From a virus, in IMG/VR virus record IMGVR_UViG_3300037423_002564: a stretch of 64,000 nt of DNA; one strand, written 5' to 3'. The number at the start of each line of letters is the position of its first letter. The first letter of the stretch is position 1. This document shows positions 2,753 through 51,621 of the stretch, in pieces. The position numbers and the translations under genes were made by a program. The notes under the pieces are model-generated. The model did no database searches. It saw nothing but the letters and a program-made list of their open reading frames with translations, and had not been told where the DNA came from.

Positions 2753-2769
2753 GGTCAATCGGTCAGACC
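2753..2769 (-). promoter_or_regulatory. GGTNNNACC operator-like site with 8-bp extension
   Basis: Minus strand reads GGTCTGACC GATTGACC in the gmk-trxB intergenic gap. Confidence 0.6.
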
Positions 2770-2777
2770 AATAGAAC

Positions 2778-3353
2778 TTAAGATGCGACCCTGGACAACT
2801 TGTCCTTATAGGCCAGGATGGCGCACTGGAGCTGGCCCAGCATGTGCTCCTCGGTGTCGGGGTGGATGCGGCCCTCGCAGCGGTCGGCGTACTTGACCTC
2901 CTCGTCCACCAGGGCCAGGCGCTGGGTGATCTCCTCGGGCGAGTTGCCCCGGGCCTCCATGCGCATCGCGAGCACCGTCTTGATGGGCGGCAGCACGAAG
3001 AGCTTGAGCACGCGGTTGGGGTAGGCCCGCTCGAACTGCTCCGCGCCGTCTCGGCACGTCACCACCACGGTGTCGCCCTTCGCGAGCGCGGCCTCCATCA
3101 CGCGGCGATCGTAGCCGTACTTCTCGCCGGCGTACTCGACCACCTCGACGAAGTCGCCGTGGCGCTGCTTGTTGTCGAACCACTCCGGCGTGATGAAGTG
3201 GTAGGGCTGCCCCTCGCTCTCGCCCGGGCGCATCATGCGCGTGGCGTGGCTGATGGGCTCGCTCATCCCCTTGATGTGCTTGGCCGCCGCACGGGCCAGG
3301 CTGGTCTTGCCCGCGGCCGACGGCCCGACCAGCACCACCACGAGCCCCGCCAT
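2778..3353 (-). CDS. gmk: Guanylate kinase
   Basis: P-loop GPSAAGKT, SHATRMMRPGESEGQPYHF, GDFVEVVEYAGEKYGY. Confidence 0.9.
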   Translation of the reverse strand: MAGLVVVLVGPSAAGKTSLARAAAKHIKGMSEPISHATRMMRPGESEGQPYHFITPEWFDNKQRHGDFVEVVEYAGEKYGYDRRVMEAALAKGDTVVVTCRDGAEQFERAYPNRVLKLFVLPPIKTVLAMRMEARGNSPEEITQRLALVDEEVKYADRCEGRIHPDTEEHMLGQLQCAILAYKDKLSRVAS

Positions 3354-3970
3354 TAGGCCAGGGTCTCCGACATCAGCACCTCGGCCTCCAGCTCGACCGG
3401 CGCGGCCGTGAGCTGCCCGGGGATGTAGCCCTTGAGCAACTCGCGGTCGGCCTTCGTCGGCAGGCTCACCTGCACCTCGGGCACCACGGCCATCACGTCC
3501 TCCAGATGGGGGAACGTCTCGATGGCGGTCTTCTTCTCCAACATCTCCAAGTCGTAGGCTTCCTGCTCCTTGATGAAGGGCGCGGACAGCTCCTCGTTCT
3601 CCTTGGCGATGATGGCGTTGCGGCGCTTGGCCTCGACGTGGACCACGTTGGCGTAGTCGGAGTGGGCATCGTACTTCAGGTGGAACGCGCCGGTGTTGCT
3701 CACGTTGATGCTGGCGAAGGCACCCTCCACCCCGTTGCCGTACTTCTGGGCCAGCGCCTTGCCCAACTGCGCGACGGCATCGAGGGCGACGGCCAGCTCG
3801 GGCATCCCCTGGATGGCCTGGACCATCTCGTTGCAGACCGTGCTCGTGGCGACGGGCGACTGCAACGCCACGCCGGGGCGGGCCCGCTTCTTCGTGTTGA
3901 AGAGCTTCATCAGGCTCTCGCGCTGGCTCTTGGTCAACTTGCTCTTGGTGACGACGGTGGTGACGGACAT
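3353..3970 (-). CDS. Hypothetical protein
   Basis: 205 aa ORF, 1-nt overlap with gmk start. Confidence 0.65.
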   Translation of the reverse strand: MSVTTVVTKSKLTKSQRESLMKLFNTKKRARPGVALQSPVATSTVCNEMVQAIQGMPELAVALDAVAQLGKALAQKYGNGVEGAFASINVSNTGAFHLKYDAHSDYANVVHVEAKRRNAIIAKENEELSAPFIKEQEAYDLEMLEKKTAIETFPHLEDVMAVVPEVQVSLPTKADRELLKGYIPGQLTAAPVELEAEVLMSETLA

Positions 3971-3998
3971 GACAAGAGTCTCCTCTATCGGGTGGGGG

Positions 3999-4301
3999 TT
4001 AACCGGGGCAGTCGTTGGTGATGTCCAGGTAGCGGGCGTGGGCCTCGGGGTCGGTGTAGCGGAACCTCTCGGGGAGAAGCTCGGGAACGCCCGCCGCTCG
4101 GAAGGCCCAGCGGATCATGCGCTCGCGGCTCTGGCGCTGGTCCGCGGCTCGGCTCCGCTCGCGTATCCGCTCGTCCAGCTTGTTGTAGTCCTTGCCTTGG
4201 AAGGTAAGGTGCAGGCCCACGTTGAACTCGAACATGTCGATGTGGCACTTCCCGCAGCGGGGGCACCAACCTGTTGGAGGCGGCGTGGCTTGCCCCATCA
4301 T
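3999..4301 (-). CDS. Small CxxC protein
   Basis: WCPRCGKCH motif; 4-nt overlap with upstream gene. Confidence 0.6.
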   Translation of the reverse strand: MMGQATPPPTGWCPRCGKCHIDMFEFNVGLHLTFQGKDYNKLDERIRERSRAADQRQSRERMIRWAFRAAGVPELLPERFRYTDPEAHARYLDITNDCPG

Positions 4302-4486
4302 CCGGCCTGCTTCAGCTTCTCCAGCTCGTGGCGCAGGCGGATGTTCTCCTTCTGCTCGTCCAGAAGCTGGTTGCGCGTGATGCGCAGGTGGATGTTGGCC
4401 TCGTCCCGCTGGCTCGCCACGGTGACGAAGCCCCAGGTGATGGCGAGCATGTAGATGCCGAAGAAGGCGTAAGGCAGGAACCCCAT
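4298..4486 (-). CDS. Small membrane protein
   Basis: N-terminal hydrophobic helix FLPYAFFGIYMLAITWGFVTV followed by a charged coil. Confidence 0.6.
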   Translation of the reverse strand: MGFLPYAFFGIYMLAITWGFVTVASQRDEANIHLRITRNQLLDEQKENIRLRHELEKLKQAG

Positions 4487-4946: not shown

Positions 4947-5435
4947 TCAAGACTTGCCGCCCTTCTTCTTCTCCTCCTTGAGGTCCTCCAAGTCCGGTAC
5001 GCCCTTGACCTTCATGGCCTCGCCGATGCGGGCGAGCTGCTTGAGCAAGGCGTCCGTGATGAGCGTCTGGCGCTCGATCTCCGCGGCCTTGGAGCCGGCC
5101 AGGGGGTTGGTGAGGCGGTGGCCCTTGTCGTGGGCGAGCACGTACATCAGGTGCTTCACCTCGTCCGCGTCCAAGGTGAGCGTACCCAACGGATCGTCTG
5201 ACGGACCTTCGGTCAGACCATTGGCGTCCCGCTCGATGGCCCACAGCGTCCCCTTGGGCAGGCAGACGGTCACGCCCTTGCCCTCGACCAGATGCGCACC
5301 TTCGGCGAGCTGCTTGGTCTTGATGGCCTTGGTGTCGCTGTCCATGGGGAGCGCGATGACGCGGGGGCTGGCGTCTAGTGGCATCGTGGTGGGCGAGGCA
5401 TCCAGGCCCGGGTAGATGGTGAGTTTACAAGGCAT
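4947..5435 (-). CDS. Hypothetical protein, first gene of the leftward operon
   Basis: 162 aa ORF directly downstream of a sigma70-like promoter. Confidence 0.65.
   Translation of the reverse strand: MPCKLTIYPGLDASPTTMPLDASPRVIALPMDSDTKAIKTKQLAEGAHLVEGKGVTVCLPKGTLWAIERDANGLTEGPSDDPLGTLTLDADEVKHLMYVLAHDKGHRLTNPLAGSKAAEIERQTLITDALLKQLARIGEAMKVKGVPDLEDLKEEKKKGGKS
5195..5219 (-). promoter_or_regulatory. Operator-like site embedded in CDS
   Basis: Minus strand GGTCTGACC GAAGGTCC GTCAGACG; local codons (ggt, gaa, tca) depart from the usual GC3 bias. Confidence 0.45.
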
Positions 5436-5599: not shown

Positions 5600-6898
5600 A
5601 TGGATGCAAATAGAGATGTGGACTTTTCGATAATCACGGCAGGCTTCGGCACGGCCGACGAACGAGACCATCTCTCGATCGTGGGCGGCCTCTTCCTGGT
5701 CCGCGGCGTCCAGCCCGGGGACACCCTGTTCTTCGAGGACGGCGCCGGAAACCAGCACTACGCCGCCGTCTTGCAGGTCAACAGCGACGACGTACTGGTC
5801 TACCAACCTTTGGTCCGGCCCCCCGACCCGCCGCGGCCGGTTGGTCCGACCGACCTACCGAACGTCCCGGGCGCTGCGGGCCCGACCGAGCTTCCGCCCG
5901 CGAGTCCGATCGACATTCCGCCGGGCGAGTACATGGTGCGGGTGGCGCGCTACATCGTGCAGCCGTGCCCCATCTGCCAGAAGAACGAGCTGGCCCGCGA
6001 GATCGACCACATGCACTGCAACTGGTGCCTGACGGAGATCCCGCTCGACCACGCGACCGTCAACTGCCCGGCCTGCATCCAGGCCATGCGCCAGCGCCTG
6101 GTCAAGGAGCGCTCCATCCAGCAGAAGATGACGATGTTCGGCGGCCGTCGCCAGATCACCGTCCACGCGCTGACCGTCTTCGAGGGCGACCAGGCGCAGG
6201 AGCTGCAAGAGGCGTTCGTGATCGGGGCGCCCGGCGTGCCGCGTCCCAGCCAGGGCTTCGTCTTCGACGAGGTGAAGAAGGCGCAACTCGCCTTGGGTCT
6301 CGACGACGACGGCCTGGGCCAGAAGCCGGCGGGCCTCGTGCAGGGCGGCGTCATCAGCAACCTCAACGAGCTGCGTGTGGCGATGAAGTTCTTCAAGTCG
6401 ATGACGCAGGCGCAGTACCGCGGCATCCACACCTGCATGGCGGCGCTCGAAGCGCTGGTGCAAGAGGCGTGCCGGTACAAGATCGACGACACGCTCGGCG
6501 AGGAGGAGTTGCTCGGCCTGGCCGACGACCTGGCGCACGCCACGGGCCCGGTCTACGGGACGGTCGCGCTCTTCGACGGCATCGAGCATCTGACCTTCTG
6601 CGATCCGCTGGAGGAGCTGATCGAGGAGGCCGACAACTGGACCGAGAACTTCCGCACGTTGAACCAGAACAACCTCCTGGAGGGGCGCTACAACTTCTTC
6701 AAGTCGATGAGCCGCGTGGCCGCCGTGTTCCGGCGCGACGGCAAGGTGGCCTTCACCGAAGAATCTACCCACCAGGAGCGTCTGGCCTACCTGTCGAGCT
6801 TGCCCACGCCGTACTACTACCTGTACCTGGCGGCCAGCAACGTGTTCGCGCGCCAGGTGGCGCAGGCCAACCGGGTTGAAGTCCTGGGAAACTCCTAA
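5600..6898 (+). CDS. Zn-ribbon-containing protein, first gene of the rightward arm
   Basis: GGAGA RBS; CPIC...CNWC...CPAC cluster; 432 aa. Confidence 0.7.
   Translation: MDANRDVDFSIITAGFGTADERDHLSIVGGLFLVRGVQPGDTLFFEDGAGNQHYAAVLQVNSDDVLVYQPLVRPPDPPRPVGPTDLPNVPGAAGPTELPPASPIDIPPGEYMVRVARYIVQPCPICQKNELAREIDHMHCNWCLTEIPLDHATVNCPACIQAMRQRLVKERSIQQKMTMFGGRRQITVHALTVFEGDQAQELQEAFVIGAPGVPRPSQGFVFDEVKKAQLALGLDDDGLGQKPAGLVQGGVISNLNELRVAMKFFKSMTQAQYRGIHTCMAALEALVQEACRYKIDDTLGEEELLGLADDLAHATGPVYGTVALFDGIEHLTFCDPLEELIEEADNWTENFRTLNQNNLLEGRYNFFKSMSRVAAVFRRDGKVAFTEESTHQERLAYLSSLPTPYYYLYLAASNVFARQVAQANRVEVLGNS
5843..5867 (+). promoter_or_regulatory. Operator-like site embedded in CDS
   Basis: GGTCCGACC GACCTACC GAACGTCC. 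Confidence 0.45.
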
Positions 6899-7896: not shown

Positions 7897-7927
7897 TATG
7901 CTGGTCTGACCAACGTACCGAACTACC
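7897..7927 (+). promoter_or_regulatory. -10-like TATGCT followed by operator array
   Basis: TATGCT 7897-7902, then GGTCTGACC AACGTACC GAACTACC, then GGAGG RBS of the 7941 gene. Confidence 0.6.
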
Positions 7928-7940: not shown

Positions 7941-8525
7941 TTGGAACTCGCCAATATCCCCATTCCCGCCATCGATCCCCGCCCTTGGCTGAAGGCGTTC
8001 GCCGGCAACATGGAAGCCCAGCTCCAGGCCAAGGACAGCCAGTACGGCGTCGACGCGTTCCTGACGTCGAGCTACATCTCGCTGGCGGCCGAGGCCGGCA
8101 AGCACCTGGCGATCGCCACCGGCGACGCGCTGCTGCTCAAGGACTACGAGGGCGTGCGCAAGCACTGCGCCCACGCGGCGAACTTCCTGGGCTTCATCGC
8201 CACGAAGGCCCTGATCGACGCCGCCAACGCGGAGGACGAGGTGCTGGCGAACTTGCAGGGCGAGTCCGTGCCCGAGCCGCCGGCCGATGTCGTGGCGGCC
8301 TCGAAGGATGCCCTGGCGGCGGCGGAAGCGGAGGCTCCCGCGGCGGCCGTGGACCCTACGACCACCTCTACTCCCTCGACGGATACGGCCGCGTCGTCCA
8401 TGACCGAGGCTGCCCCTGCGGCCACGGACGCGGCGAAGCCGTCTGACGACCAGGGCAGCTTCTCCAGCACGCCCCCCGCGGCGGCCCCCGACGAGACCAC
8501 CCAGGGCCCCGGCGGTTCGCTCTAG
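7941..8525 (+). CDS. Hypothetical protein with acidic Ala/Pro/Thr-rich tail
   Basis: TTG start with GGAGG RBS; helical N-terminus, low-complexity C-terminus. Confidence 0.7.
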   Translation: MELANIPIPAIDPRPWLKAFAGNMEAQLQAKDSQYGVDAFLTSSYISLAAEAGKHLAIATGDALLLKDYEGVRKHCAHAANFLGFIATKALIDAANAEDEVLANLQGESVPEPPADVVAASKDALAAAEAEAPAAAVDPTTTSTPSTDTAASSMTEAAPAATDAAKPSDDQGSFSSTPPAAAPDETTQGPGGSL

Positions 8526-14873: not shown

Positions 14874-15116
14874 ATGAGCACGTTCGACCGCATCCAGACC
14901 ATCGTCAGCGACCGCCTTGGGGTGGAGCGCCGCCTGGTGGCCGAGCAGACCAACCTCGAAGGCGAGCTGGGCATGGACTCGCTCGACCGCGTGGAGCTGG
15001 TGATGGCCTTCGAGGAGGAGTTCAACATCGAGATCCCCGACGAGGACATGGCGGCGATCGCCACCGTCGAGGACGCCGTGAAGCTCGCCGACCGCCTGGT
15101 GGCCGCGAATGGCTAA
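14874..15116 (+). CDS. acpP: Acyl carrier protein
   Basis: 80 aa acidic protein; LGMDSLDRVELVMAFEEEFNIEIPDED with the phosphopantetheine Ser (DSL). Confidence 0.93.
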   Translation: MSTFDRIQTIVSDRLGVERRLVAEQTNLEGELGMDSLDRVELVMAFEEEFNIEIPDEDMAAIATVEDAVKLADRLVAANG

Positions 15117-15531
15117 CTTCCGCAACGCGCCCGTCTACGTCCAGGCGCTCCAGCTCACGAAGTCCATCTGGATCGACGACTGGCGGGACGAGGTGGCGCG
15201 CGCCGCGGCGCAGGACGGCCAGTGCCAGAAGTGCCTCGACCGCATCGAGGGCAAGAAGGGCGACTGGCTCGTGACCTTCCCCGACGGCCACATGGAGATC
15301 ATCAAGGACAAGGACTTCCGCAAGGCGTTCGTGCCCTCCGACTTCATCGAGGACCACGCCAAGAGCCTGCGCGAGAGCTTGGAGCGCTTCAAGCGCGACC
15401 CCATCAAGCCGATGCCGCCCCCGCAGCCCCTCTACCCGTACCAGCCCCAGCAGCCCTACTTCCCCATGGGCCCCACCTGCGCGGTGGGCGGCGCCTTCCC
15501 CGACGCCATGAGCTGGCACGTCCCAGGGTAG
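15109..15531 (+). CDS. Phage 'YRKKP..GDW..F...YE' domain protein
   Basis: FRNAPVYVQALQL...GKKGDWLVTFPDGHMEIIKDKDFRKAF. Confidence 0.6.
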   Translation: MANFRNAPVYVQALQLTKSIWIDDWRDEVARAAAQDGQCQKCLDRIEGKKGDWLVTFPDGHMEIIKDKDFRKAFVPSDFIEDHAKSLRESLERFKRDPIKPMPPPQPLYPYQPQQPYFPMGPTCAVGGAFPDAMSWHVPG

Positions 15532-15562: not shown

Positions 15563-16003
15563 ATGGCCCGACGCACCAGCGCGGTCGCGTACCGCCAGAT
15601 CATGAACAGCGGCCTGTTGAGCCGCCGGCGCTCCGAGGTGTACGCCACCTTGTACGAGCACGGCCCGCTCACGGTGATGGAGACCTGCCACAAGCTGGGC
15701 ATGCCCGACGCGCAGACCACTATCTCGCCGCGCATGGCGGAGCTGAAGCGGCTGGGCGTCGTCTGCGAGGACGGCACCAAGATCTGCTCCATCACCGGCA
15801 AGCGCGCCATCCAGTGGGACGTCACGGAGGCCCTGCCGGCCAAGCCCGCCAAGACGGAGACCACCAAGCAGCGCTTGGAGCGCCTGGAGGCGGAGCGCAA
15901 GCTCTTGGTCGAGGTGGTCAAGCAGGCCCGGCCGGTCGCTGACGGCAACGCGGACCTGCGCCTTGCGATCGCGGCCGTCGACCAGTTGTGGGTGCAAGGC
16001 TGA
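15563..16003 (+). CDS. Winged-helix DNA-binding protein with C-terminal coiled coil
   Basis: EVYATLYEHGPLTVMETCHKLG...TISPRMAELKRLGVV...wing ITGKRAIQW. Confidence 0.7.
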   Translation: MARRTSAVAYRQIMNSGLLSRRRSEVYATLYEHGPLTVMETCHKLGMPDAQTTISPRMAELKRLGVVCEDGTKICSITGKRAIQWDVTEALPAKPAKTETTKQRLERLEAERKLLVEVVKQARPVADGNADLRLAIAAVDQLWVQG

Positions 16004-18132: not shown

Positions 18133-18145
18133 TCCATATAATACC
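18133..18145 (+). promoter_or_regulatory. -10-only promoter TCCATATAATACC
   Basis: Identical 13-mer at 29425-29437; 40 nt above the ATG at 18182. Confidence 0.7.
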
Positions 18146-18512: not shown

Positions 18513-18875
18513 ATGATCACCCTCGATCACCACATCGGCCTGCGCGTCAACGAGCTGCGCCAGGCGCTCGACCTCACCCTCCACGCCGCGGCCCTCAAGG
18601 CCAACCTGAAGGTGGGCGAGCTGGCGCGCATCGAGCAGGGCATCGGCGAGCTGCCGGATGCGAAGCTGATCCGCCTCGCGCGATCGCTGGGCGTGAGCCC
18701 CGGCTACCTGCTGGGCACCGAGGAACATGACGAGCTGGAGGCGGACCCGCTCTACAGGCTATTCAAGAGCCATCTGGCGGCCTGCAAACCGGACCTGCGC
18801 CGCAGCATCTTGGTGATGTTAATTCAGGGCGTCGCGAAGGCCAAAAAACAAGGTCTACCAGGCAATCAAACTTAG
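18513..18875 (+). CDS. XRE/Cro-C1 family HTH regulator
   Basis: IGLRVNELRQALDLT..ALKANLKVGELARIEQG..PDAKLIRLARSLGVSPGYLLG. Confidence 0.8.
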   Translation: MITLDHHIGLRVNELRQALDLTLHAAALKANLKVGELARIEQGIGELPDAKLIRLARSLGVSPGYLLGTEEHDELEADPLYRLFKSHLAACKPDLRRSILVMLIQGVAKAKKQGLPGNQT

Positions 18876-18876: not shown

Positions 18877-18935
18877 TTGACTGGTACTACTTGCTGAAGT
18901 ACGATGTTGGTCCGACCAGTAGGTCGGTCAGACCA
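18877..18935 (+). promoter_or_regulatory. sigma70 promoter TTGACT-N17-TACGAT with tandem operators over the start site
   Basis: -35 at 18877-18882, -10 at 18900-18905, TTGGTCCGACCA 18907-18918 and GGTCAGACCA 18926-18935. Confidence 0.8.
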
Positions 18936-18957: not shown

Positions 18958-19311
18958 ATGTCCGTCGAGACCTACGCCCCGTCCCCGTTGGCCCAGACCA
19001 GCGGCCCCCCGAAGCCGCTCTCCGAGATGAGCGTGGCGGACGCCTCCCGCGTCTTGAGCAGCGAGCTGTCGTTCCTGAACGAGAAGCTGGACCGGCTCCT
19101 GACGCACGCGGCCGGTGATCAGCCGAACGTGAGCGCGGAGAAGATGCCGCCCACGGCGATGGGCGTCAAGGGCGAGTTCCAGACCACCGTGTCGATGCTG
19201 CAATACGCGCATACCCTGGTCGATCGCCTTGGCAAGGAATACGGCGTGATGCTGCCGGCGCAGTCCCAGCACGCGCTGAAGGCCGTCCACGTCGGCAACA
19301 GCCTCTCGTAA
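18958..19311 (+). CDS. Hypothetical protein
   Basis: AAGGAG RBS, ATG at 18958. Confidence 0.65.
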   Translation: MSVETYAPSPLAQTSGPPKPLSEMSVADASRVLSSELSFLNEKLDRLLTHAAGDQPNVSAEKMPPTAMGVKGEFQTTVSMLQYAHTLVDRLGKEYGVMLPAQSQHALKAVHVGNSLS

Positions 19312-29407: not shown

Positions 29408-29437
29408 TTGGTCGGACCGTCCTATCCATATAATACC
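29408..29437 (+). promoter_or_regulatory. Operator plus -10 promoter for the tail region
   Basis: TTGGTCGGACC 29408-29418 and TCCATATAATACC 29425-29437. Confidence 0.7.
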
Positions 29438-36440: not shown

Positions 36441-36469
36441 CCATACAATAGGGGTAGGACCGAACGTCG
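36441..36469 (+). promoter_or_regulatory. -10 TACAAT plus operator upstream of the tape-measure-like gene
   Basis: CCATACAATAGGG, then GGTAGGACC GAACGTCG. Confidence 0.6.
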
Positions 36470-39400: not shown

Positions 39401-41085
39401 CCTTCCGGGTCAACAACCTCGACTTCGTGAAGGGCATCCAGGCCAGCCAGGACGGCTCCGACGGCCTGCTGTCGTCCATGAGCGCGGACGTGGTGCGGCA
39501 GCTCCAGGAGCGCGGGGACATGGGCGCCATCGAGAAGGCCATCACGGGCGATCGCGAGACGACGCTCGACAACCTGGCGCCCCTGATCTTCCAGCACAAG
39601 CGCTCCGAGCTGTCCAACCAGCAGCTCTACCAGTTGGGCGGCGTGGTCGACCAGCTCCGCAAGCAGGGCCTCGGCCGTGACAAGCGGGGGATGCTCGACG
39701 ACCTGGCCGAAGGCGCGCTCAAGGACCCCGGCGACCCCCGCATGATCGCGGGCGAGAAGCTGGAGGACGAAATTCGCAAGCGCAGCCGCGAGCTGGGCAC
39801 CGTCGGCCAGCGCCTCTTGGGGTCCAGCGCCAAGGCGGAGGACGCCGTGGAAGCCGGCAACATCTACCTGCGCAAGGCCGTGGCCGATGTCATCCGCCGC
39901 AGCAGCGGCTACGCCGACGCGCGCGAGAAGCTCGCGAGCCTGGGCGTGACCGAGGACCAGTACGCGCAGTACGGCATCGACGCCGACCGCTTCCGCGACA
40001 CCGGCAACCGCTACGCCCTGGAGTATCAGCAGAACGTCGTCAACCAGGCCCTGGGCAAGCTCGGGAAGGAGCGCCAGAAGGACTTCATCGGGATGGACGA
40101 CGACTTCAACACGATGTTCCCCGATCCGATGGGCGGCTTCAAGGCCATCAAGGGCCTGGTGCAGCTCCAGAGCCGCAAGGCGGAGCTGGCGCCCGTGGCC
40201 TTGAGCAGCCAGGACATCCAGGACCTCTCCTTGCGCTTCGGCACCGACCGCCTGGGCGGCGTGAGCCTCGCGGGCTACGGCATGGGCGGCACGACCTGGC
40301 AGCAGGTGGCCGACAAGCTGAAGAGCGGCAACATCGGCGACACGCGCGCCGTGATCCAGGCGCTCATGTCCGACGAGAAGGTCAAGAGCAAGCTGGACCC
40401 GGGCGGCATGGAGGCCATCATCGCGGCCAGCGGCAAGCTCGCGGAGGGCAAGGCGCTCTCGGACGACGAGATGTTGGGCATCTTCAAGCAGATCAACCCC
40501 AAGACCACGCTCAAGGACGTGCAGCTCCTGCGCGAGAGCAAGAAGGCCCAGGACGACGCGCTGCCCGCCGGCGAGCGCCGCGGCGAGGTCGGCATTGACA
40601 CCGACGTGCTGAACTCGGCCCTCTCGCACGCCCTCAAGGGCGGCATGATGCCCCACACCACCGTGGGCGACAAGCTGGGCAGCAACCTCGACCCGGAGGT
40701 GCGCGCGGCCATGATCAAGGCGTTCGACCAGCAGATGGCGCTGGCCCAGCAGATGGAGCAAATTGGCAAGGCGATCGACCCCACCCGCCAGAACGAGCTG
40801 ATGGCCGCGGTCAAGCAGCTCGTCAGCGCCGACGGCAAGGGCGGCATCGGCGAGGCGCTCAAGGCGTACTCGAAGGACGGTAAGGCCCTCGACGTTAACA
40901 TCGTCGGCGGCATGCCGGAGCCCGTCCACACCGTGGTCAACGCCGGGAGCCCCAACGAGGTCTCCCACAACCAGGCGGCGCCCCAGGCCGCCCCGCTGAA
41001 GAACGGCGGCGTCGCGCCCAAGGGGCCGGTCGCGCCGAAGCCCAGCACCGCCCGTCCCACCCCGACCAAGCCGAAGGGCAAGTAA
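36481..41085 (+). CDS. Tape-measure-like protein
   Basis: 1534 aa, helical Ala/Gly/Met-rich, glycine-zipper GSAVGSLLMPGVGTVAGGLVGG, positioned upstream of baseplate genes. Confidence 0.7.
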   Translation: MLGENFNQPDPTQRITWDVTLRADQANQELDSLNAKAMRVADSLSALSSGYLNNLAATQAAATAAPQVGVNPLAGGMFTAGMIPQTAMAMQNAVAMGGAFSPQAIMARDATMMQLAAMGPATGMGPSLTTPWGDPTVNFTRGNGASPFRMNLGYLPFQGPPGAPGDPRRGDFFFSDRSGSMLDTAGMLFGRMTGYGIANDNLEDRMIRNIERRMSHFGENVSGLARFGVFDMGGSLAGSAVGSLLMPGVGTVAGGLVGGLAGGIANQTFGRISQPFVDMGKDFKQYTAPYIRGNRLGGGIDEKERFDVQEAMARKVAEDKWFTSREYQDLVSMAGETGLFQYTGNKEQALRAVDKLGESVKALYALGVKSREMLGEIDKMAGTFGMNPGKDPAQIANFYATMAVSAQSAGMSTAQMTTAVAPAAQMFANQGLGFATGARIAAMNLGAAGDMFRSGRLGAFENTYYGGKEGFANALTQAQAASFRTPIGETYLMSLFGDNMRNLNKMMNGETLSINDMMRGAGKLASQNPGEFMGIRARMPWLMQEIPGERLALGDLQNIIGEYRTLFGKKKGPVNSLELLNYMITSRQMDPTAANALLDFGLGAEDAAEGKRRSAGDQMEIQRIEAMRAPGLTRKIENAYERIIAAPFTTFKTGLDRAGASVGKDITEMLTGVHVYNTGADGMNVYKPFEAELAVSRAEDRVRNIGLTPIQSLVDQHPAVTLAQSTEEAARGLFGGKDVTARTNFDKALSANGVSPEEAALFRKIVTEGKAEMRLAGPERAALDRAAMETTGASSAAAAQAQILQDAQARERFAARARRDGFNQTFADAYLDDRPVVVSRQDLPTAVGDRLTQALAASSGRKATAGLLDPANQEIVNRLADHDQAGAAAAEAELRRLGYTQEEIDTFRQVTYQDKLDHGMDAFGLPKARGMDDRRTALLAEGSARTFRRRNLSPERFQQMLDIYDRETRQKQETFRVNNLDFVKGIQASQDGSDGLLSSMSADVVRQLQERGDMGAIEKAITGDRETTLDNLAPLIFQHKRSELSNQQLYQLGGVVDQLRKQGLGRDKRGMLDDLAEGALKDPGDPRMIAGEKLEDEIRKRSRELGTVGQRLLGSSAKAEDAVEAGNIYLRKAVADVIRRSSGYADAREKLASLGVTEDQYAQYGIDADRFRDTGNRYALEYQQNVVNQALGKLGKERQKDFIGMDDDFNTMFPDPMGGFKAIKGLVQLQSRKAELAPVALSSQDIQDLSLRFGTDRLGGVSLAGYGMGGTTWQQVADKLKSGNIGDTRAVIQALMSDEKVKSKLDPGGMEAIIAASGKLAEGKALSDDEMLGIFKQINPKTTLKDVQLLRESKKAQDDALPAGERRGEVGIDTDVLNSALSHALKGGMMPHTTVGDKLGSNLDPEVRAAMIKAFDQQMALAQQMEQIGKAIDPTRQNELMAAVKQLVSADGKGGIGEALKAYSKDGKALDVNIVGGMPEPVHTVVNAGSPNEVSHNQAAPQAAPLKNGGVAPKGPVAPKPSTARPTPTKPKGK

Positions 41086-46085: not shown

Positions 46086-47543
46086 ATGGCACTCACCATC
46101 CAGTTCGGTTCGTGGACCAGCAGCCCGACCCAGGCCAGCGTGAGCTGGCAGGTGCAGGACCTCCAGGCGGACGGCATCGCCCAGGTCGAGGTGGCGATCG
46201 CCAAGGAGGGCGACCCCTTCGTGTACACCGTGGCGCCCGGCGCCAACGGCACGCTGACGCTGCCCACGGACCAGTACCAGGGCGACGTCATCGCGAGCGT
46301 GCGCGCCACCGACTTCTCGGCCCAGACCGTGACGGGCGAGAGCAGCGTGACGGTCGACAACTTCGTCGCCCCGCTGCCGGCGACCTGGCTGCGCTACGAG
46401 AACCCGCAGCCCTTCAGCCTGCGCTTCGAGTGGGACGCCCTGGCGCTCTCGCCGGCCAACGCGGCCTGGCGCATCGTCAACCTCAAGCGCGACAACACGG
46501 AGGTGGTGCTGGCGGAGGTGCCGGTGGCCGACCGCACGGCGCTCGTGGCGACGCCCCTGGTGGACCTGTACCAGGTGCGCATCTACGGCGTCGACGCCTA
46601 CGGCAACCTGTCGGCGCCGAGCCCCACCTTGCACTTCGCCCTGGGCGGCGACGGCCCGGGCATCACGCTCCAGCCCTGGGTGATCAGCTCCAACGCGGCG
46701 CTCATCCGCTGGGTGGCGCGCTCCGACCAGTTCATCACGGCCGTCAACTGGCGCTTGGAGGACGATCGCGGCATGGTGCTGACCGGCACGGGCCTGCCCA
46801 TCGGCGAGGCCAGCATCCCGGTGGACGGCTACCAGGGCACGGTGCGCTTCTACCTCACGGTCTCGGACGCGCTGGACCGCAGCTCGACCGCGAGCAGCCA
46901 GGCGGGCGTCTACAACGTGGCCCCGCCGGCGCCCCTCGTCATCATCGAGGAGGTGGGCATCCACTTCGTGCGCGTGCGCGTGCTGCCGGCGGAGCCCGGG
47001 CCCGTCGAGGTGCCCGTGACGCTCGCGAACATCTTCGGGCCGGGCGGCGAGGTCTTCGAGCCGCTGCCCTTCGTCCACACCTTCAGCGGCCTGACGCAGG
47101 CCACCAGCTACGCCTTCGCCGCCCGCCTGATGACGCCCTCGGGCTTCAAGGGCGCGCAGAGCGAGACGGTGACGGCGAGCACCCTGGTCGACCCCAACTA
47201 CGTGCCGCCGGAGCTGCCCGGCTACACCGGCGGGCCGTTCCTGCCGCGCATCCAGGCGCTGTTGACCGAGCCCGTGCGCCACTTCGTGCTCCAGATGTTC
47301 GTCGACACGCGCCTGCGCGCGCCCACCGCCGCGCAGCTCGTGAGCGCGCCGCCGGGCTTCGACGCCGTGCTAGAATTGTTCACCGCCGTGGGCCCCTTCC
47401 TGGGGGACATCCTGCGCCGCGAGACCGCGGACGAGGAGACCCACCAGGCCGCCCTGCTGATCGACGCGCTCGCGGATCCGCTCGCCAAGTGCGCCGTGCT
47501 GTGCGAGCGGGTGGAGTTCGGCTTCATCTTTAACCAAGGGTAG
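46086..47543 (+). CDS. FN3-repeat structural protein
   Basis: Repeated beta-sandwich motifs, e.g. FSGLTQATSYAFAARL..SETVTAST. Confidence 0.65.
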   Translation: MALTIQFGSWTSSPTQASVSWQVQDLQADGIAQVEVAIAKEGDPFVYTVAPGANGTLTLPTDQYQGDVIASVRATDFSAQTVTGESSVTVDNFVAPLPATWLRYENPQPFSLRFEWDALALSPANAAWRIVNLKRDNTEVVLAEVPVADRTALVATPLVDLYQVRIYGVDAYGNLSAPSPTLHFALGGDGPGITLQPWVISSNAALIRWVARSDQFITAVNWRLEDDRGMVLTGTGLPIGEASIPVDGYQGTVRFYLTVSDALDRSSTASSQAGVYNVAPPAPLVIIEEVGIHFVRVRVLPAEPGPVEVPVTLANIFGPGGEVFEPLPFVHTFSGLTQATSYAFAARLMTPSGFKGAQSETVTASTLVDPNYVPPELPGYTGGPFLPRIQALLTEPVRHFVLQMFVDTRLRAPTAAQLVSAPPGFDAVLELFTAVGPFLGDILRRETADEETHQAALLIDALADPLAKCAVLCERVEFGFIFNQG

Positions 47544-47567: not shown

Positions 47568-50500
47568 GTGAGCAGCGCACAACCCAACAACGTCGCCATC
47601 AACCTCGAAGGCCGCATGGCCCTGTACGTGGAGGGCGTGCGCTGCCCCTTCACGGAGGTGCAGCTCGTCACCGAAGACGGCATGATCCCGCGCATCGTCT
47701 TCACCATCCCGCCCAGCCCGACGATGCGGGATCTGCCGCGGCGCGCGCGCCTGCACTTCATCGTGCGCGAGCTGGTGAAAGACGAGTGGATCGTGATGTT
47801 CGAGGGCGAGGTGATGAGCCGCGGCTTCCGCAAGACGCCGCAGAGCCGCGACCTGACCTTCATGGGCTACCACGTGGCCGGCCACCTCGACCAGTACGCC
47901 ATCAGCGCGCTCGATCCCACCGCCAAGACCCAGGCCACGATGCAGGCGGCCCCGGAGTTCCGCACCGCGAGCCTGGCGTCGGTCAACGGCACGATGCTCG
48001 CGCTGTTCAACCCCACCGTGATCGCGGCCCTCGTGGGCACCGACCCGGACAAGCTCACCTACCCCGACTTCATCCAGGGCGCGCGCCAGCGTTACGAGCA
48101 GGTCGTGGAGAAGAGCCGCATCGCGGAAGCCTACCCGCACGAGGCCGTGAAGTTCCACCGCATCTTCGACCGCATGAAGGGCGCGCTGCCCGACAAGGAC
48201 CTGTTCGACTGGGACGAGTTCTACTCCAAGCTCATGATCCAGGTCTTCAACTTCGGCACCCAGACGGTGGGCGGGCGCGTGACCTTCTTCGAGTTCCTGC
48301 GCCATATGAGCCAGTTCTTCCTGCACCAGGTCAGCGTGCTGCCAAACGCGGAGCACTGGACCAAGCAGATCCAGGTCCGCCCCAACACGTTCTTCCACCC
48401 CATCCCGCGCTGCAACATCATCTACAGCTCGCTCTCGGAGGAGTACGCCTACGAGGAGAACTACGAGACCAAGCCCACGCGCCTGGAGGCCCACTTCCTG
48501 CCCCTGGGCACGGCGCCGGGCCAGAACATGAGCGCGGTGGCGCGCTTCACCACGGTCTACGCGCCCAACGAGCTGCAAGAGAGCTGGAAGCGCATCACCG
48601 ACGCCCTCGACGAGGGCGGCACCACCGTGGACGCCACGATGGACGAGGACAAGGACGGCAAGCCCATCGTCAACGCGCCCAAGGACGGCATCAAGTTCCT
48701 GACGCGCGAGGAGGAGCAGCGCGGCATCATCGGCGCGTACTACGACATCCCGCAGACGCTCCAGCACGCCATCATGAGCCTGGTCGAGCACCCGGCGGGC
48801 GCCCAGGAGTCGAGCCCCATGCGCCAGGTCGACCCGGCCAAGGCGTCGGAGCACGGCCAGAAGGTGCTCAAGGGCACCGCGGAGGTCGACCGCATCGAGA
48901 AGTACCGCGCCTTCTTGTGCATGGCCCTGGGCGACGGTGGCGGCATCAAGCCGGGGCGCTTCGGCGCCAAGCAGCCCTTCGAGGACTACCGCCGGCCGGG
49001 CCAGTTGCTGCACATCCTGACGGGCTCCAACGACAGCCGCTTCGGCAAGGTGCCCAAGATCGTGCCGCGCCGCCTCACGGTGGTGCCCCTGAACCTCACG
49101 CCGCACTACGTCGAGAACACGCAGAAGGCGGGCTTCAAGCACCCCGACAACAAGAGCCCCTTCATCGGCTCGGGGGTGAACTACTTCGTGGACGCCAACG
49201 GCAACCTGCTCCAGGTGCTGCCCCGGCGGGCGCACCTGTTCACCCAGCCGTCCGCCGTGCCCTTCGGCATGGTGGTCTCGGGCGTGGCGGAGGACGAGCT
49301 GGCGGAGATCAACACGGGCATGTTGTCGCTCAACCAGAAGCGCACGGAGGCCACCGACACGCCCTTCTTCGTGGGCACCGTGACGCGCACGCCGTTCACG
49401 GAGAACGACCTGGGCAACAAGGTCCAGTACTGGCCGCCGGAGCTGACGGCCGCGGGCATCCCCAACCCGGACGCCGGCTTCGGCCAGCCGCTGGGCGAGT
49501 TCTACTTCGACGAGCGCGTGGGCGTCGGCGACCCCACGCTCAAGGGCACGGCCGTGTTCGGCGCGGCCGACTTCGCCAAGATCGAGAAGAACCGCAGCGA
49601 GTTCACCATCAGCAGCTACACCGGCGCCTTCAACTACATCGGGCAGCGCGACCAGAAGGCCACCATCGTCGACGCCCGCGCGATCGCGGTCGCCGGCAAC
49701 AAGGCGGTCTACTGGATCAAGCTCAACCGCGCGATCGTGGCGCCGCTCGCCAAGCACCGCGTGCTGATCCAGAACAAGAGCCACGAGGGCAAGCAGGTCG
49801 CCCCCAACAAGCCCTGGGTGCTCATCCCGCCCTCGAAGCGCGGCGAGGCCAAGGCCGGGCCCAAGGTGCCGGTCAGCGTGACCTCGCTCAAGTCCATCAC
49901 GGCCAAGTCCAGCATCAGCAACCCCGACCAGACGTCGGGCGGCAACCACTTCAACTTCGCGGTGGGCGTGGAGACGCGCGACGGCCGCATCACGCCCAAG
50001 GCGGAGGCCACGCTCGCCTGGCTCTCGGCGGTGGTGATGGAGCTGACGGCGGAGCACGTCGGCACGCTCAAGGCGCCCGTGCCCAACCAGGCCCAGCGCC
50101 AGCCCAAGCTGGGGGCCGGCGCGCTCTTCGAGATCGCCGACTACTACCATGCCGCGAGCGGCTACCGGCGCCTGGCCGCGGGCACCATGGACCGCGTCAG
50201 GGCCAAGGCCCAGCAGCTCGCGAGCCAGCTCTACAAGGACTTCAACGTCTTCGACAAGGAGCTGACGGACGGCCAGCTCCAGAGCCTGACCGACATCACC
50301 TTGACGGAGAACACCGGGCCGGGCACCTTCACCCAGATCCCCGGCGACATCAGCAACCAGACCGACACGGGCGCGGGCGCGGACGCCGCGGCCAGCTCCG
50401 CCGCCGGCGCCAGCAGCGCCTTCACGGAGGGCGTGCAGGTGACGCTCGACAAGAAGATGCTCGACAACTTCGTCGACCACTACATCGCGGCCATCGTGAA

Positions 50501-51443
50501 CTACGAGTACTACAACCTGCGCTACGCCGCCCAGGGCTTCTCCGCCCAGACGGTCTTCAACCCCTACGCGGTGGTGGGCTACCCGTGCCTGCTCCTGGAC
50601 AACTCCGACGCCAAGTACCACCTGGTGGGCTTCCTGCACTCGACCGCCCACATCTTCCACGGCGACGGCCAGGCGTACACCAGCATGACCTACAGCCATG
50701 TGCGCAACGCGCGCTGGGAGAAGCTGCTGCCCTACTCCAAGGGGGTGGACCAGTACTTCCTCTTCCGCGACGTCAAGCCCTGGCGTGACGGCGAGGCGTA
50801 CCGCAACGAGTACCACGCCCGCCTCAAGGCGCTCAACCCGCCGGCCTTCATCGGTGCCGACGATCCGCGCAGCTTCATCCCCTGGGAGCTGATGGACTAC
50901 CGCTCGAAAGCCACCCCGCCCTTCATGTACTCGGGCGGCTTCGGCTTCGACAAGGACATGAAGCGCGACTTCAAGGCCCTCGCGGCCTACGTGGGCTACG
51001 TGGACGGCGCGAGCGTGGCGACCGACCTCGAAGCCGCCAACCAGTTCGTGTACGCCGACGACCCCTTGGTCAACTTCGCGGACGACGCCGCCGGCGAGGG
51101 CGAAGGGTTGTCCGGCACGGCCGCGACCAACGAGGACATCGACGCGCGCCGCGCCTTGGAGCTGATCTACCGCAAGGTGCAGAAGATCGACCAGCTCGAC
51201 CCGGAGAAGAGCCAGGCGTCCCTGGTGGCCTTCGTGCATGGCGAGACCCGCCACTACGACGATCCGCCCATCAACATCGACGTCTACCAGGCCACCCCGG
51301 AGATCGGCAAGGACGGCTTCCCCGTGCGCAAGATCAAGGACGACGGCACGGTGGACGGGGCGATCGCCTGGCAGACGGACATCCAGAACCGCGTGTACGC
51401 CCATCTGGATCTGGTCCGCCAGCGCACCGCCATCCGCGGATAG
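47568..51443 (+). CDS. Baseplate hub-like protein with internal amidase/PGRP-like segment
   Basis: N-terminal LYVEGVRCPFTEVQL..FTIPP..VMFEGEV hub-like strands; internal GVNYFVDANGNLLQVLP..FAVGVET. Confidence 0.6.
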   Translation: MSSAQPNNVAINLEGRMALYVEGVRCPFTEVQLVTEDGMIPRIVFTIPPSPTMRDLPRRARLHFIVRELVKDEWIVMFEGEVMSRGFRKTPQSRDLTFMGYHVAGHLDQYAISALDPTAKTQATMQAAPEFRTASLASVNGTMLALFNPTVIAALVGTDPDKLTYPDFIQGARQRYEQVVEKSRIAEAYPHEAVKFHRIFDRMKGALPDKDLFDWDEFYSKLMIQVFNFGTQTVGGRVTFFEFLRHMSQFFLHQVSVLPNAEHWTKQIQVRPNTFFHPIPRCNIIYSSLSEEYAYEENYETKPTRLEAHFLPLGTAPGQNMSAVARFTTVYAPNELQESWKRITDALDEGGTTVDATMDEDKDGKPIVNAPKDGIKFLTREEEQRGIIGAYYDIPQTLQHAIMSLVEHPAGAQESSPMRQVDPAKASEHGQKVLKGTAEVDRIEKYRAFLCMALGDGGGIKPGRFGAKQPFEDYRRPGQLLHILTGSNDSRFGKVPKIVPRRLTVVPLNLTPHYVENTQKAGFKHPDNKSPFIGSGVNYFVDANGNLLQVLPRRAHLFTQPSAVPFGMVVSGVAEDELAEINTGMLSLNQKRTEATDTPFFVGTVTRTPFTENDLGNKVQYWPPELTAAGIPNPDAGFGQPLGEFYFDERVGVGDPTLKGTAVFGAADFAKIEKNRSEFTISSYTGAFNYIGQRDQKATIVDARAIAVAGNKAVYWIKLNRAIVAPLAKHRVLIQNKSHEGKQVAPNKPWVLIPPSKRGEAKAGPKVPVSVTSLKSITAKSSISNPDQTSGGNHFNFAVGVETRDGRITPKAEATLAWLSAVVMELTAEHVGTLKAPVPNQAQRQPKLGAGALFEIADYYHAASGYRRLAAGTMDRVRAKAQQLASQLYKDFNVFDKELTDGQLQSLTDITLTENTGPGTFTQIPGDISNQTDTGAGADAAASSAAGASSAFTEGVQVTLDKKMLDNFVDHYIAAIVNYEYYNLRYAAQGFSAQTVFNPYAVVGYPCLLLDNSDAKYHLVGFLHSTAHIFHGDGQAYTSMTYSHVRNARWEKLLPYSKGVDQYFLFRDVKPWRDGEAYRNEYHARLKALNPPAFIGADDPRSFIPWELMDYRSKATPPFMYSGGFGFDKDMKRDFKALAAYVGYVDGASVATDLEAANQFVYADDPLVNFADDAAGEGEGLSGTAATNEDIDARRALELIYRKVQKIDQLDPEKSQASLVAFVHGETRHYDDPPINIDVYQATPEIGKDGFPVRKIKDDGTVDGAIAWQTDIQNRVYAHLDLVRQRTAIRG

Positions 51444-51445
51444 GC

Positions 51446-51482
51446 CGAGGCCCCGGACGCATGGTCCGGGGCCTCGATCTTT
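51446..51482 (+). terminator. Intrinsic terminator ending the tail operon
   Basis: 13-bp stem CGAGGCCCCGGAC-GCATG-GTCCGGGGCCTCG followed by ATCTTT. Confidence 0.75.
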
Positions 51483-51564
51483 GCGCGCCCGTGCCAGATG
51501 GTTCACACGCTTCGCAGACCGCTTGCGCAGTCGATACCCCAGGTTAACATGCCGCGGGCCCTGC

Positions 51565-51621
51565 TGGCAAGCCCCCGCCCGGCGGCTTATAATGGGGATA
51601 GATTGGTAGTACCGAACGACC
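51565..51621 (+). promoter_or_regulatory. Promoter (TGGCAA-N17-TATAAT) plus operator
   Basis: TATAAT 51588-51593; GGTAGTACC GAACGACC 51605-51621; GGAGG RBS before ATG 51634. Confidence 0.7.

What the first reader, a model, noticed from the sequence alone, without database searches (positions are those of the whole stretch)
2753..51621. Genome-wide operator family: palindrome GGT[AC]N[GT]ACC plus directional 8-bp extensions
Seen at 2761, 5211, 5843, 7903, 15527, 18909, 18926, 29410, 36453, 47539 and 51605. Nine lie in the short intergenic gaps or on stop codons, several just downstream of a -10 box (7903, 18909, 36453, 51605). Most are followed by one or two 8-bp units resembling GAACGACC, usually co-oriented with transcription. 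A rough estimate gives about 5 chance cores in 64 kb at this GC, so the evidence is the intergenic enrichment and the extensions; coding regions were not scanned exhaustively. Established: TGGT-N3-ACCA is the GntR/FadR-subfamily operator pattern (E. coli FadR TGGTCCGACCA). Inference: one regulator (host GntR-like or phage-encoded) binds cooperatively and gates both small-gene and structural operons. This could couple phage development to host metabolic state.
Basis: partly seen in the sequence, partly recalled or inferred. Interest (0 to 1): 0.75.

Follow-up and report, generated by a model that had tools for sequence, protein, structure and literature searches.

The report
Genome-wide oriented operator arrays, jumbo phage
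A 204-kb soil jumbo phage that carries its own RNA polymerase has about 33 copies of a short DNA signal next to its promoters and between its genes, a palindrome followed by 8-bp repeats pointing along transcription; it is most likely a docking array for a repressor that controls many operons at once.

Summary
All 11 cores are at the given coordinates (11 vs 3.3 expected). The window is part of a complete 203.7-kb virus genome with 38 cores; 30 lie in the 7.9% that is non-coding or on stop codons (about 1.2 expected, P=2e-26).

The element is TT-GGTMNKACC followed by 8-bp units (RAnCKACC) that run toward the downstream gene. The 8-bp phasing is specific, and the repeats are almost always anchored on the palindrome. 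Non-coding cores are enriched in three relatives and a fourth fragment has its only core at an orthologous site (59-68% GC); several positions are orthologous.

Cores overlap predicted start sites, or the -35/spacer region of TATAAT or canonical promoters. One lies inside the spacer of a leaderless HU-gene promoter and is conserved in two phages. Others sit between cistrons with no promoter nearby. I read this as a DNA-level operator and roadblock system, functionally closest to mycobacteriophage stoperators (confidence 0.52).

No GntR gene exists in any of the three phage genomes. Phage candidates are a MarR-like winged-helix protein (15563-16003), an AbrB-like protein and an XRE protein. The phage also encodes an RNAP and a sigma factor, so a phage-promoter reading remains a rival. 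Coupling to host metabolism is unsupported.

The parts
2737..2769 (-). Core GGTCTGACC (2761-2769, read on the minus strand) plus three 8-bp units running leftward. Unit 1 (GATTGACC) supplies the -35 of the canonical promoter 2758->2730 (TTGACC-17-TATTAT) that serves the thioredoxin-reductase-like gene 1677-2666.
   Evidence: (PWM 18.3 bits)
5195..5219 (-). Core plus unit GAAGGTCC, co-oriented with gene 4947-5435 and lying inside its ORF. Probably a real intragenic site.
   Evidence: 18.6 bits
5841..5867 (+). TT plus core GGTCCGACC plus units GACCTACC and GAACGTCC, inside the non-conserved Pro-rich N-terminal part of ORF 5681-6898 and co-oriented with it.
   Evidence: 23.7 bits
7903..7927 (+). 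Core plus units AACGTACC and GAACTACC. It directly abuts the -10 box TATGCT (7897-7902) upstream and the SD of gene 7941-8525 downstream.
   Evidence: 21.2 bits
15527..15551 (+). Intercistronic site: core GGTAGGACC, whose TAG is the stop of 15109-15531, plus units AAGCGACC and AATCGACC, then the SD of the wHTH gene. No -10 box nearby.
   Evidence: 24.5 bits
18909..18934 (+). Double core (18909-18917 and 18926-18934) joined by one 8-mer, 3 nt downstream of the canonical promoter TTGACT-17-TACGAT (18877-18905). It covers the predicted start site of the operon beginning at 18958.
29410..29426 (+). Core GGTCGGACC 10 nt upstream of TATAAT (29429-29434), that is, over the -35/spacer position of the promoter of gene 29466-29768. 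Units are weak.
   Evidence: (13.2 bits)
36453..36469 (+). Core GGTAGGACC plus unit GAACGTCG, preceded by a terminator-like hairpin and the -10 box TACAAT (36444-36449), and followed by the SD of the 1534-aa gene 36481-41085.
   Evidence: 14.5 bits
47539..47563 (+). Intercistronic site: core GGTAGTACC, whose TAG is the stop of 46086-47543, plus units GACCGACC and GAAGGGCC, ahead of the 1291-aa gene 47568-51443. No -10 box.
   Evidence: 26.6 bits
51596..51621 (+). Reversed unit-like GGATAGATT, then core GGTAGTACC and unit GAACGACC, 11 nt downstream of TATAAT (51588-51593). It lies ahead of gene 51634, the first gene of the operon that holds the RNAP.
   Evidence: (29.4 bits)
15563..16003 (+). 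Candidate binder: winged-helix plus C-terminal helical-hairpin protein of 146 aa, from a large family (by the Atlas look-alike clusters mostly viral) and with an ortholog in relative G001.
   Evidence: pLDDT 93; MarR/TFE-like neighbours
18513..18875 (+). Candidate binder: XRE-type HTH protein of 120 aa, just upstream of the double-core promoter. No ortholog in G001.
56801..61096 (+). Context: fused beta / beta'(N) multisubunit-type RNA polymerase. This is why a phage-promoter reading must be considered.

Best explanation
The sites are DNA operators for one sequence-specific DNA-binding protein, most likely phage-encoded. A dimer would nucleate on the palindromic core (T)GGT-N3-ACC(A). Further subunits would then add head-to-tail along KACC half-sites phased every 8 bp, always in the direction of transcription. 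Where the array overlaps a promoter (start site, or -35/spacer) it would block initiation. Where it sits between cistrons or on stop codons it would act as an orientation-dependent roadblock to elongation, as Cluster A mycobacteriophage stoperators do. One factor would thereby hold about 33 loci, covering metabolic, regulatory and structural operons, under common control. Shown: the sites exist, are enriched, are oriented, are 8-bp phased, are anchored on a palindrome, are conserved in position, and overlap promoter elements. Inferred: that a protein binds them, that it represses, that it spreads, and which protein it is. Candidates are the wHTH protein 15563-16003, the AbrB-like protein at genome 191124-191549 and the XRE protein 18513-18875.
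For: 1) Enrichment. 30 of 38 cores are non-coding or on stop codons against about 1.2 expected, while coding cores are at chance level. A PWM scan finds 43 strand-hits at about 33 loci against about 1 expected.
2) The palindrome is integral. 28 of 31 non-coding 8-bp-phased KACC pairs are anchored on a GGT...ACC core. GGT-N3-ACC is the part conserved across G000, G001, G002 and L028.
3) DNA-level action. In both G000 and G001 the HU-family gene has the promoter TTGACC-17 bp-GATAAT followed by a leaderless ATG. The core sits inside the spacer while the rest of the spacer has diverged. At sites 0-3 nt after a -10 box, the predicted transcript would lack the left half of the core.
4) Repressor-like geometry. 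Cores lie at about -6..+20 or -38..-20 relative to -10 boxes. All four sigma70-type matches in the window abut cores. 31 of 57 non-coding -10-like boxes have a core within 45 nt.
5) Five divergent intergenic regions share a single core with units running both ways.
6) Intercistronic sites are conserved at orthologous positions, for example upstream of the orthologs of genome genes 79515 and 118539, and just after the major-head-protein stop codon in three genomes.
7) Orientation follows transcription (13:0), as documented for stoperators (PMC9283540).
8) A tyrosine integrase is present, so silencing during lysogeny is conceivable.
9) DNA-binding candidates exist: a wHTH protein, an AbrB-like protein and an XRE protein.
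Against: No binding or expression data exist; the phage is uncultured and no RNA run holds it. A symmetric dimer does not by itself explain why asymmetric cores (GGTAGGACC) and units are always co-oriented with transcription. An 8-bp repeat puts successive half-sites on different faces of the helix, which is unusual for cooperative HTH arrays. The phage has its own RNAP and sigma factor, so some or all sites could be promoter elements. No candidate protein is tied to the motif by anything beyond proximity. G002 lacks the units, so spreading is not universal. The lifestyle is unproven.
Confidence: 0.52

Rival explanations
1. The element is a phage-specific promoter or start-site element, read by the phage's own RNAP (fused beta/beta') with its sigma factor or another phage factor. 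The core marks the start region and the units are the initially transcribed leader.
For: The phage encodes an RNAP and a sigma70-family factor. In the related phage Arash these are virion proteins (PMC10585845). The motif is oriented with transcription, lies 11-70 nt upstream of start codons, occurs between cistrons without any -10 box, numbers about 33, is absent from one 45-kb gene block, and is conserved at orthologous positions. All of this is typical of a phage promoter class. In G002 it sits 0-6 nt after TATAAT, that is, at the start site.
Against: The geometry relative to -10 boxes is not fixed: 0-16 nt downstream, or 7-17 nt upstream. The core sits inside the spacer of a canonical promoter for a leaderless gene with no SD, so a start at the core would give an untranslatable leader. 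Divergent genes share one palindromic core. Three sites run straight into terminator-like hairpins. Some cores are only 11-20 nt from the start codon. Palindromy is atypical of promoters.
Confidence: 0.2
2. The binder is a host GntR/FadR-type regulator. The phage would then borrow a host metabolic sensor.
For: The core matches the FadR-type operator TGGT-N3-ACCA: the E. coli fadL site contains GGTCCGACC (PMC4259882). In G001, 10 of 18 non-coding cores carry both the T and A flanks. No phage GntR gene exists, so a GntR binder would have to come from the host. The phage carries an acyl carrier protein gene.
Against: The host is unknown, and no prophage relative was found in bacterial genomes. 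The motif drifts between phage lineages (GGTCSGACC in G001, GGTAGGACC in G002, units mainly in G000), which fits a co-evolving phage factor better. The directional 8-bp units are not a feature of FadR sites. The sequence resemblance covers only 9-11 bp.
Confidence: 0.12
3. The element acts in the mRNA, as a 5'-leader signal (translational operator or enhancer, or a processing site) recognised as tandem KACC repeats just upstream of the Shine-Dalgarno.
For: About ten arrays end 0-3 nt before the SD. Orientation follows transcription. The leaders are unstructured and A/C-rich, with z-scores up to +1.6 against shuffles. This resembles the placement of Cluster K start-associated sequences (PMC3203893).
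Against: Repeats almost never occur without the GGT left half-site. Cores in promoter spacers, or upstream of -10 boxes, would not be transcribed from the adjacent promoter. At sites 0-3 nt from a -10 box the RNA would lack half the core. No Rfam family matches and there is no stable fold. Distances to the start codon vary from 11 to more than 90 nt.
Confidence: 0.08

Closest known systems
Operators and stoperators of Cluster A mycobacteriophages (L5 gp71-type immunity repressor; PMC9283540)
   Same: There are tens of copies of one short motif per genome. Sites occur both at promoters and in short intergenic gaps or on stop codons. Orientation is tightly correlated with the direction of transcription. 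The phage carries an integrase.
   Different: Stoperators are 13-bp asymmetric sites bound by a monomer with two DNA-binding domains. Here the site is a palindromic core plus 8-bp-phased direct half-sites. The phage is a 204-kb jumbo phage with its own RNAP and sigma factor. The binder, its repressing role and the lifestyle are all untested.
E. coli FadR (GntR family) operator, e.g. fadL site 1 AGCTGGTCCGACCTATA (PMC4259882)
   Same: The core is identical: TGGTC-N-GACC(A), a 9-11-bp palindrome of the TGGT-N3-ACCA type.
   Different: No GntR gene is present in the phage or two relatives. FadR sites have no directional 8-bp extensions. The number and placement of sites differ. The host is unknown.
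AbrB/Abh binding regions of Bacillus subtilis (bipartite TGGNA motifs; PMC3738160)
   Same: Arrays of GG-centred pentamers (TGGNA/TNCCA, compare TGGTA and TACCA) occur in direct and inverted arrangement and are covered by higher oligomers. The phage encodes an AbrB/SpoVT-domain protein that is conserved in G001.
   Different: AbrB spacers are 4-5 bp and AT-rich, giving a period of 9-10 bp. Here the inverted pair has a 1-bp spacer and the direct repeats have a 3-bp spacer, giving a period of 8 bp. Only some cores fit TGGNA.
Start-associated sequences (SAS/ESAS) of Cluster K mycobacteriophages (PMC3203893)
   Same: A genome-wide, oriented repeat lies close to gene starts, sometimes overlaps the upstream stop codon, is restricted to part of the genome, and has unknown function.
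   Different: The SAS contains the SD and lies 3-7 bp from the start codon. Here the element lies upstream of the SD at variable distance, overlaps promoter elements, and has a palindromic core.
MetJ metbox arrays and the lambda Xis filament (recalled from my own knowledge, not checked here)
   Same: Tandem sites of about 8 bp are bound cooperatively by successive protein units.
   Different: MetJ is a ribbon-helix-helix protein, and no RHH_1 match was found in the phage. The metbox is itself palindromic.

Membership tests
GntR/FadR-type operator-regulator system | Operator of the form TGGT-N3-ACCA (inverted GT...AC half-sites) | tested here: met
   The core GGTMNKACC fits. Both T and A flanks are present in 7 of 30 (G000), 10 of 18 (G001) and 5 of 11 (G002) non-coding cores. 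The fadL FadR site contains GGTCCGACC.
GntR/FadR-type operator-regulator system | A GntR-family (PF00392) regulator encoded by the element or its genome | tested here: not met
   Six-frame search with PF00392 at E<=1 gave no match in G000, G001 or G002. A host-encoded GntR cannot be tested because the host is unknown.
GntR/FadR-type operator-regulator system | Release of the regulator by a metabolite (acyl-CoA for FadR) | not testable with these tools
   No protein has been identified and no assay is possible.
Stoperator-type genome-wide repressor sites (Cluster A mycobacteriophages) | Many copies of one motif at promoters and in short intergenic gaps or on stop codons | tested here: met
   About 33 loci; 30 of 38 exact cores are non-coding or on stop codons; sites occur at promoters and between cistrons.
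Stoperator-type genome-wide repressor sites (Cluster A mycobacteriophages) | Asymmetric site whose orientation follows the direction of transcription | tested here: met
   Unit 1 lies downstream-only in 13 cases and upstream-only in 0 (P=1e-4). GGTAGGACC is co-oriented in 4 of 5 (G000) and 5 of 6 (G002) cases. The core itself is palindromic, unlike a stoperator.
Stoperator-type genome-wide repressor sites (Cluster A mycobacteriophages) | Bound by the phage immunity repressor; blocks initiation and elongation | not testable with these tools
   No homolog search against L5 gp71-type repressors was run. Binding and repression need experiments.
Stoperator-type genome-wide repressor sites (Cluster A mycobacteriophages) | Temperate lifestyle | tested here: inconclusive
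   A tyrosine recombinase (PF00589, E=8e-14) is present and conserved in G001. No prophage relative was found in bacterial genomes, and the genome has direct terminal repeats.
Phage-RNAP promoter class | Conserved, oriented motif upstream of genes in a phage that encodes its own RNAP | tested here: met
Phage-RNAP promoter class | Fixed geometry relative to the transcription start and no dependence on other promoter elements | tested here: inconclusive
   No start-site data exist. The position relative to -10 boxes ranges from -38 to +36, and one conserved copy lies in the spacer of a canonical promoter. Both points argue against this reading without excluding it.
Structured cis-regulatory RNA (riboswitch or leader) | Match to a known RNA family, or a fold more stable than shuffled sequence | tested here: not met
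   No Rfam match in the window. Eight leaders gave z-scores of -1.3 to +1.6.

The most novel reading that the evidence does not exclude
This would be a new way to make a symmetric operator directional. A dimer nucleates on a 9-bp palindrome and then polymerises one way along 8-bp-phased half-sites. The result is a polar nucleoprotein filament that gates both initiation and elongation across about 33 loci. It would operate in a possibly temperate 204-kb phage that also packages its own sigma-dependent RNAP, and could form the switch between host-RNAP and phage-RNAP programmes. A sub-variant is that the nucleating protein is a host FadR-like sensor, which would tie phage development to host lipid status.
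Probability: 0.18. Interest if true: 0.78.

Novelty: new variant of a known kind. Interest (0 to 1): 0.55.

Why it matters
Genome-wide oriented regulatory sites are well studied only in Cluster A mycobacteriophages. This work defines a second, architecturally different system: a palindromic nucleation core with phased directional half-sites. It occurs in an uncultured soil lineage of jumbo phages that carry a fused beta/beta' RNAP, a sigma factor, an integrase and a tmRNA.

The element provides a ready map of transcription-unit boundaries for four related genomes. It also gives a short list of testable regulator candidates. The biochemical question is clear: how does a symmetric core act directionally? 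If the roadblock reading holds, orientation-dependent silencing of elongation would be a recurrent phage strategy rather than a mycobacteriophage peculiarity.

Tried and rejected
- Chance or composition: rejected.
- Structured RNA or a known RNA family: rejected.
- Free-standing RNA repeat units: rejected, because the repeats are almost always anchored on the palindrome.
- Core acting as a -35 element: rejected, because implied spacers range from about 12 to 24 bp.
- Phage-encoded GntR: none found. RHH_1: none found.
- HU-family protein as the specific binder: unlikely. It is a generic HU, closest to Thermotoga HU, so more likely a regulated target.
- Expression data: no RNA run holds the phage. 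Laying metatranscriptome contigs from relatives gave only short fragments with no usable 5' ends. One contig reads through the major-head-protein stop, the core and unit 1 without any listed difference.
- Close DNA relatives among named phages: none.
- Prophage relatives in bacterial genomes: none, so the host stays unknown.
- Word-index homolog search for the wHTH protein found only itself. The exhaustive search found a large family.
- Atlas look-alikes for the proteins at 18958-19311 and genome 135407-135733 were uninformative.
- A distinct shared motif in the core-free 138-183 kb block was sought and not found.
- Earlier scan notes on relatives: none.
- Not done: I did not run a homodimer prediction for the wHTH protein, and I did not search for L5 gp71-type repressors.


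Full report
**1. What the window is**

The window is bases 15088-79087 of a complete 203,733-bp virus record with direct terminal repeats and 67.6% GC. I made a codon-usage and GC3 gene map with 284 genes and 92% coding density. The phage encodes a fused beta/beta'(N) multisubunit-type RNA polymerase at window 56801-61096 (Rpb2_6 E=4e-50, Rpb1_2 E=8e-22). It also encodes a sigma70-family factor (genome 116888-117871), a terminase, a major head protein and baseplate parts, and a tyrosine recombinase.

The nearest named relatives of the RNAP are Salmonella phage Arash and Vibrio phages D181, D148 and D69, at about 32% identity. In Arash the RNAP subunits and a sigma factor are virion proteins (PMC10585845). 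The DNA occurs in soil and rhizosphere metagenomes, and no RNA run holds it.

**2. The observation**

All 11 GGTMNKACC cores are at the stated places. The count is 11 against 3.3 +/- 1.5 expected, and none of 100 shuffles reached it. Nine are intergenic or on stop codons.

Genome-wide there are 38 cores. Thirty lie in the 7.9% of the genome that is non-coding or stop-overlapping, against 1.1-1.4 expected. The coding fraction holds 8 against 9.3 expected (binomial P=2e-26).

Aligned in the direction of the downstream gene, the element reads TT-GGTMNKACC-RAnCKACC, followed by a weaker third 8-mer. A PWM of these 19 bp finds 43 strand-hits at about 33 loci at 12 bits or more, against about 1 in Markov controls. 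Three of these loci have degenerate cores.

The 8-bp phasing is specific. KACC-N4-KACC occurs 31 times in non-coding DNA against 2-7 times for any other spacer from 1 to 8. Twenty-eight of those 31 pairs are anchored on a GGT...ACC core.

Orientation follows transcription. Unit 1 lies only downstream in 13 unidirectional contexts and only upstream in none (P=1e-4). Five divergent intergenic regions have one shared core with units running both ways.

The two window sites inside ORFs (5211 and 5843) carry canonical units and flank the divergent promoter region, so they are probably real.

Sites are absent from one 45-kb block of small genes at 138-183 kb. There, 1 of 25 intergenic gaps holds a core, against 27 of 71 elsewhere (P=8e-4).

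**3. Conservation**

Two distant relatives show the same non-coding enrichment, and a third, a short fragment, carries its single core at an orthologous site:
- G001 (208 kb, 64% GC; 100 reciprocal orthologs at 21-64% identity): 18 non-coding cores against 1.1 expected. Its consensus is TTGGTCSGACCAAY.
- G002 (80-kb fragment, 66% GC): 11 non-coding cores against 0.3 expected. Most are GGTAGGACC, co-oriented, 0-6 nt after TATAAT-like boxes, and without units.
- L028 (8.9-kb fragment, 59% GC): a single core with one unit.

Positions are orthologous in several cases:
- immediately after the major-head-protein stop codon, in three genomes;
- the divergent region next to terminase;
- the divergent region ahead of the sigma operon;
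- upstream of the orthologs of genome genes 79515, 118539, 123371, 128922 and 135407;
- the divergent region orthologous to genome 97891.

The part conserved in all lineages is GGT-N3-ACC. The units are a lineage-specific elaboration, strongest in G000.

**4. DNA or RNA**

Several facts place the function on DNA.
- The left half-site is integral to the arrays.
- In both G000 and G001 the HU-family gene (PF00216, E=4e-19) has the promoter TTGACC-17 bp-GATAAT followed six bases later by a leaderless ATG. The core is conserved inside the spacer while the other spacer bases differ.
- Where the core starts 0-3 nt after a -10 box, the predicted transcript would begin inside the core.
- Units also fill the stretch between a core and a downstream -10 box, for example at genome 130044 and 195204 and at window 2761.
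- No Rfam family matches, and motif-bearing leaders fold no better than shuffled sequence.

**5. Relation to promoters**

Cores fall into two classes relative to -10 boxes, about -6..+20 and about -38..-20. Both classes lie inside an RNAP footprint. That fits a repressor rather than an activator.

All four sigma70-type matches that the consensus scan finds in the window abut cores. They are 2758->2730, 18877-18905, 29458->29430 and 51564-51593. Of 57 non-coding -10-like boxes, 31 have a core within 45 nt. The spacing is not fixed, so the core is not a -35 element.

At least seven sites have no -10 box at all. These are window 15527 and 47539 and genome 8590, 79485, 109045, 118498 and 185504. 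They sit between cistrons, often using the TAG of GGTAG as the upstream stop codon. Two of them are conserved in G001. These are the counterpart of stoperators, which are asymmetric repressor sites in short intergenic gaps whose orientation follows transcription and is needed for function (PMC9283540).

**6. Who binds**

- GntR: no GntR-family gene in G000, G001 or G002. No RHH_1 match either.
- wHTH (window 15563-16003): it lies directly behind a site and has an ortholog in G001 at 34% identity. It belongs to a family with 2,168 cluster representatives. Members hit TrmB, ArsR, MarR and BlaI-type models. The model has pLDDT 93 and shows a winged helix plus a C-terminal helical hairpin, with MarR-family and TFE-alpha neighbours at borderline E-values (also 89).
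- AbrB/SpoVT-domain protein (PF04014, E=1e-10; genome 191124/191244-191549): it is conserved in G001 and transcribed divergently from the HU gene. AbrB is documented to bind arrays of TGGNA/TNCCA pentamers in direct and inverted order as higher oligomers (PMC3738160). That resembles TGGTA...TACCA, although the spacing differs.
- XRE (window 18513-18875): it sits just before the double-core promoter but has no ortholog in G001. G001's only XRE gene is unrelated in sequence, though it is preceded by a degenerate core.
- HU: a generic HU, more likely a regulated target.
- Host FadR-like protein: it cannot be excluded, because the fadL FadR site contains an exact core (PMC4259882). The host is unknown, and lineage-specific drift of the motif favours a phage factor.

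**7. Rivals**

A phage-promoter reading remains credible at about 0.2, because the phage has its own RNAP and sigma factor and the motif has the count, orientation and placement of a promoter class. Against it stand the palindrome, the variable geometry, the copy inside a promoter spacer, the cores shared by divergent genes, and three arrays that run straight into terminator-like hairpins. An RNA-leader function is unlikely, at about 0.08. The claim that the system couples development to host metabolism has no support.

**8. Verdict**

The element is a real, conserved, genome-wide family of oriented regulatory sites. It is most likely an operator and roadblock system. In function it is closest to stoperators, and in core sequence to FadR-type operators, but its architecture differs from both. 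I class it as a new variant of a known kind. The binder and its effect need experiments.

Noticed in passing
L016:5857-6305 (+) = genome about 124944-125392, outside the window: A phage-encoded tmRNA (Rfam RF00023, 72 bits against a gathering score of 47, E=1e-27) lies in a 1.1-kb non-coding region. ARAGORN missed it. About 500 nt upstream is a canonical promoter, TTGACA-N18-TAGTAT, with a core inside its spacer.
   Followed up: partly
L015:17801-18784 (+) = genome 116888-117871: A sigma70-family factor (Sigma70_r2, E=2e-11) lies in an operon with a tail-fibre-like protein. The operon is flanked by motif sites and conserved in G001 and G002.
   Followed up: partly
L013:12780-13619 (-): A tyrosine recombinase/integrase (PF00589, E=8e-14) occurs in a 204-kb phage with terminal repeats and a virion-type RNAP, and is conserved in G001. 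The lifestyle (temperate, or plasmid prophage) is open.
   Followed up: no
L019:11521-11838 (-) and L019:12037-12462 (+): A divergent pair: an HU-family gene with a leaderless transcript from TTGACC-17-GATAAT, and an AbrB/SpoVT-domain gene behind its own canonical promoter. The pair is conserved in G001.
   Followed up: partly
many intergenic regions, e.g. window 18137-18142, 29429-29434, 51588-51593; genome 103761, 135741: There is a second repeated signal: near-palindromic CC(C)TATAATAGG(G) boxes with no -35 element. These are probably the main promoter class of the structural region. About half have a core within 45 nt.
   Followed up: partly
genome 138000-183000 (outside the window): A 45-kb block of small plus-strand genes with long gaps has almost no cores, few TATAAT boxes and no shared motif that I could find. 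Three tandem paralogous upstream regions share GGGTCCACCCGCGAGGAG next to the SD.
   Followed up: partly
window 14874-15116, 1677-2666; genome 185524-186117, 198190-198591, 201681-202406: Auxiliary genes: acyl carrier protein (PF00550, E=9e-15), thioredoxin-reductase-like flavoprotein (E=5e-40), thymidine kinase (E=8e-27), RusA resolvase and Dam methyltransferase.
   Followed up: no
genome 110727, 104622, 90324 (outside the window): Three arrays run directly into strong GC-rich hairpins, and the last unit forms the 5' arm at 110727, right after the major-head-protein stop. A core occupies the same position in G001 (also followed by a hairpin) and in G002 (there preceded by a TATAAT box).
   Followed up: partly
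window 29778-31421: A 547-aa protein with F5/8 type C (discoidin) and Ig-like domains, probably a carbohydrate-binding virion decoration or adhesin.
   Followed up: no
L015:10751-11657 (major head protein gene): Rhizosphere metatranscriptome contigs at 80-95% identity cover parts of the major-head-protein gene. Relatives of this phage therefore appear in RNA libraries of plant-root soils.
   Followed up: partly
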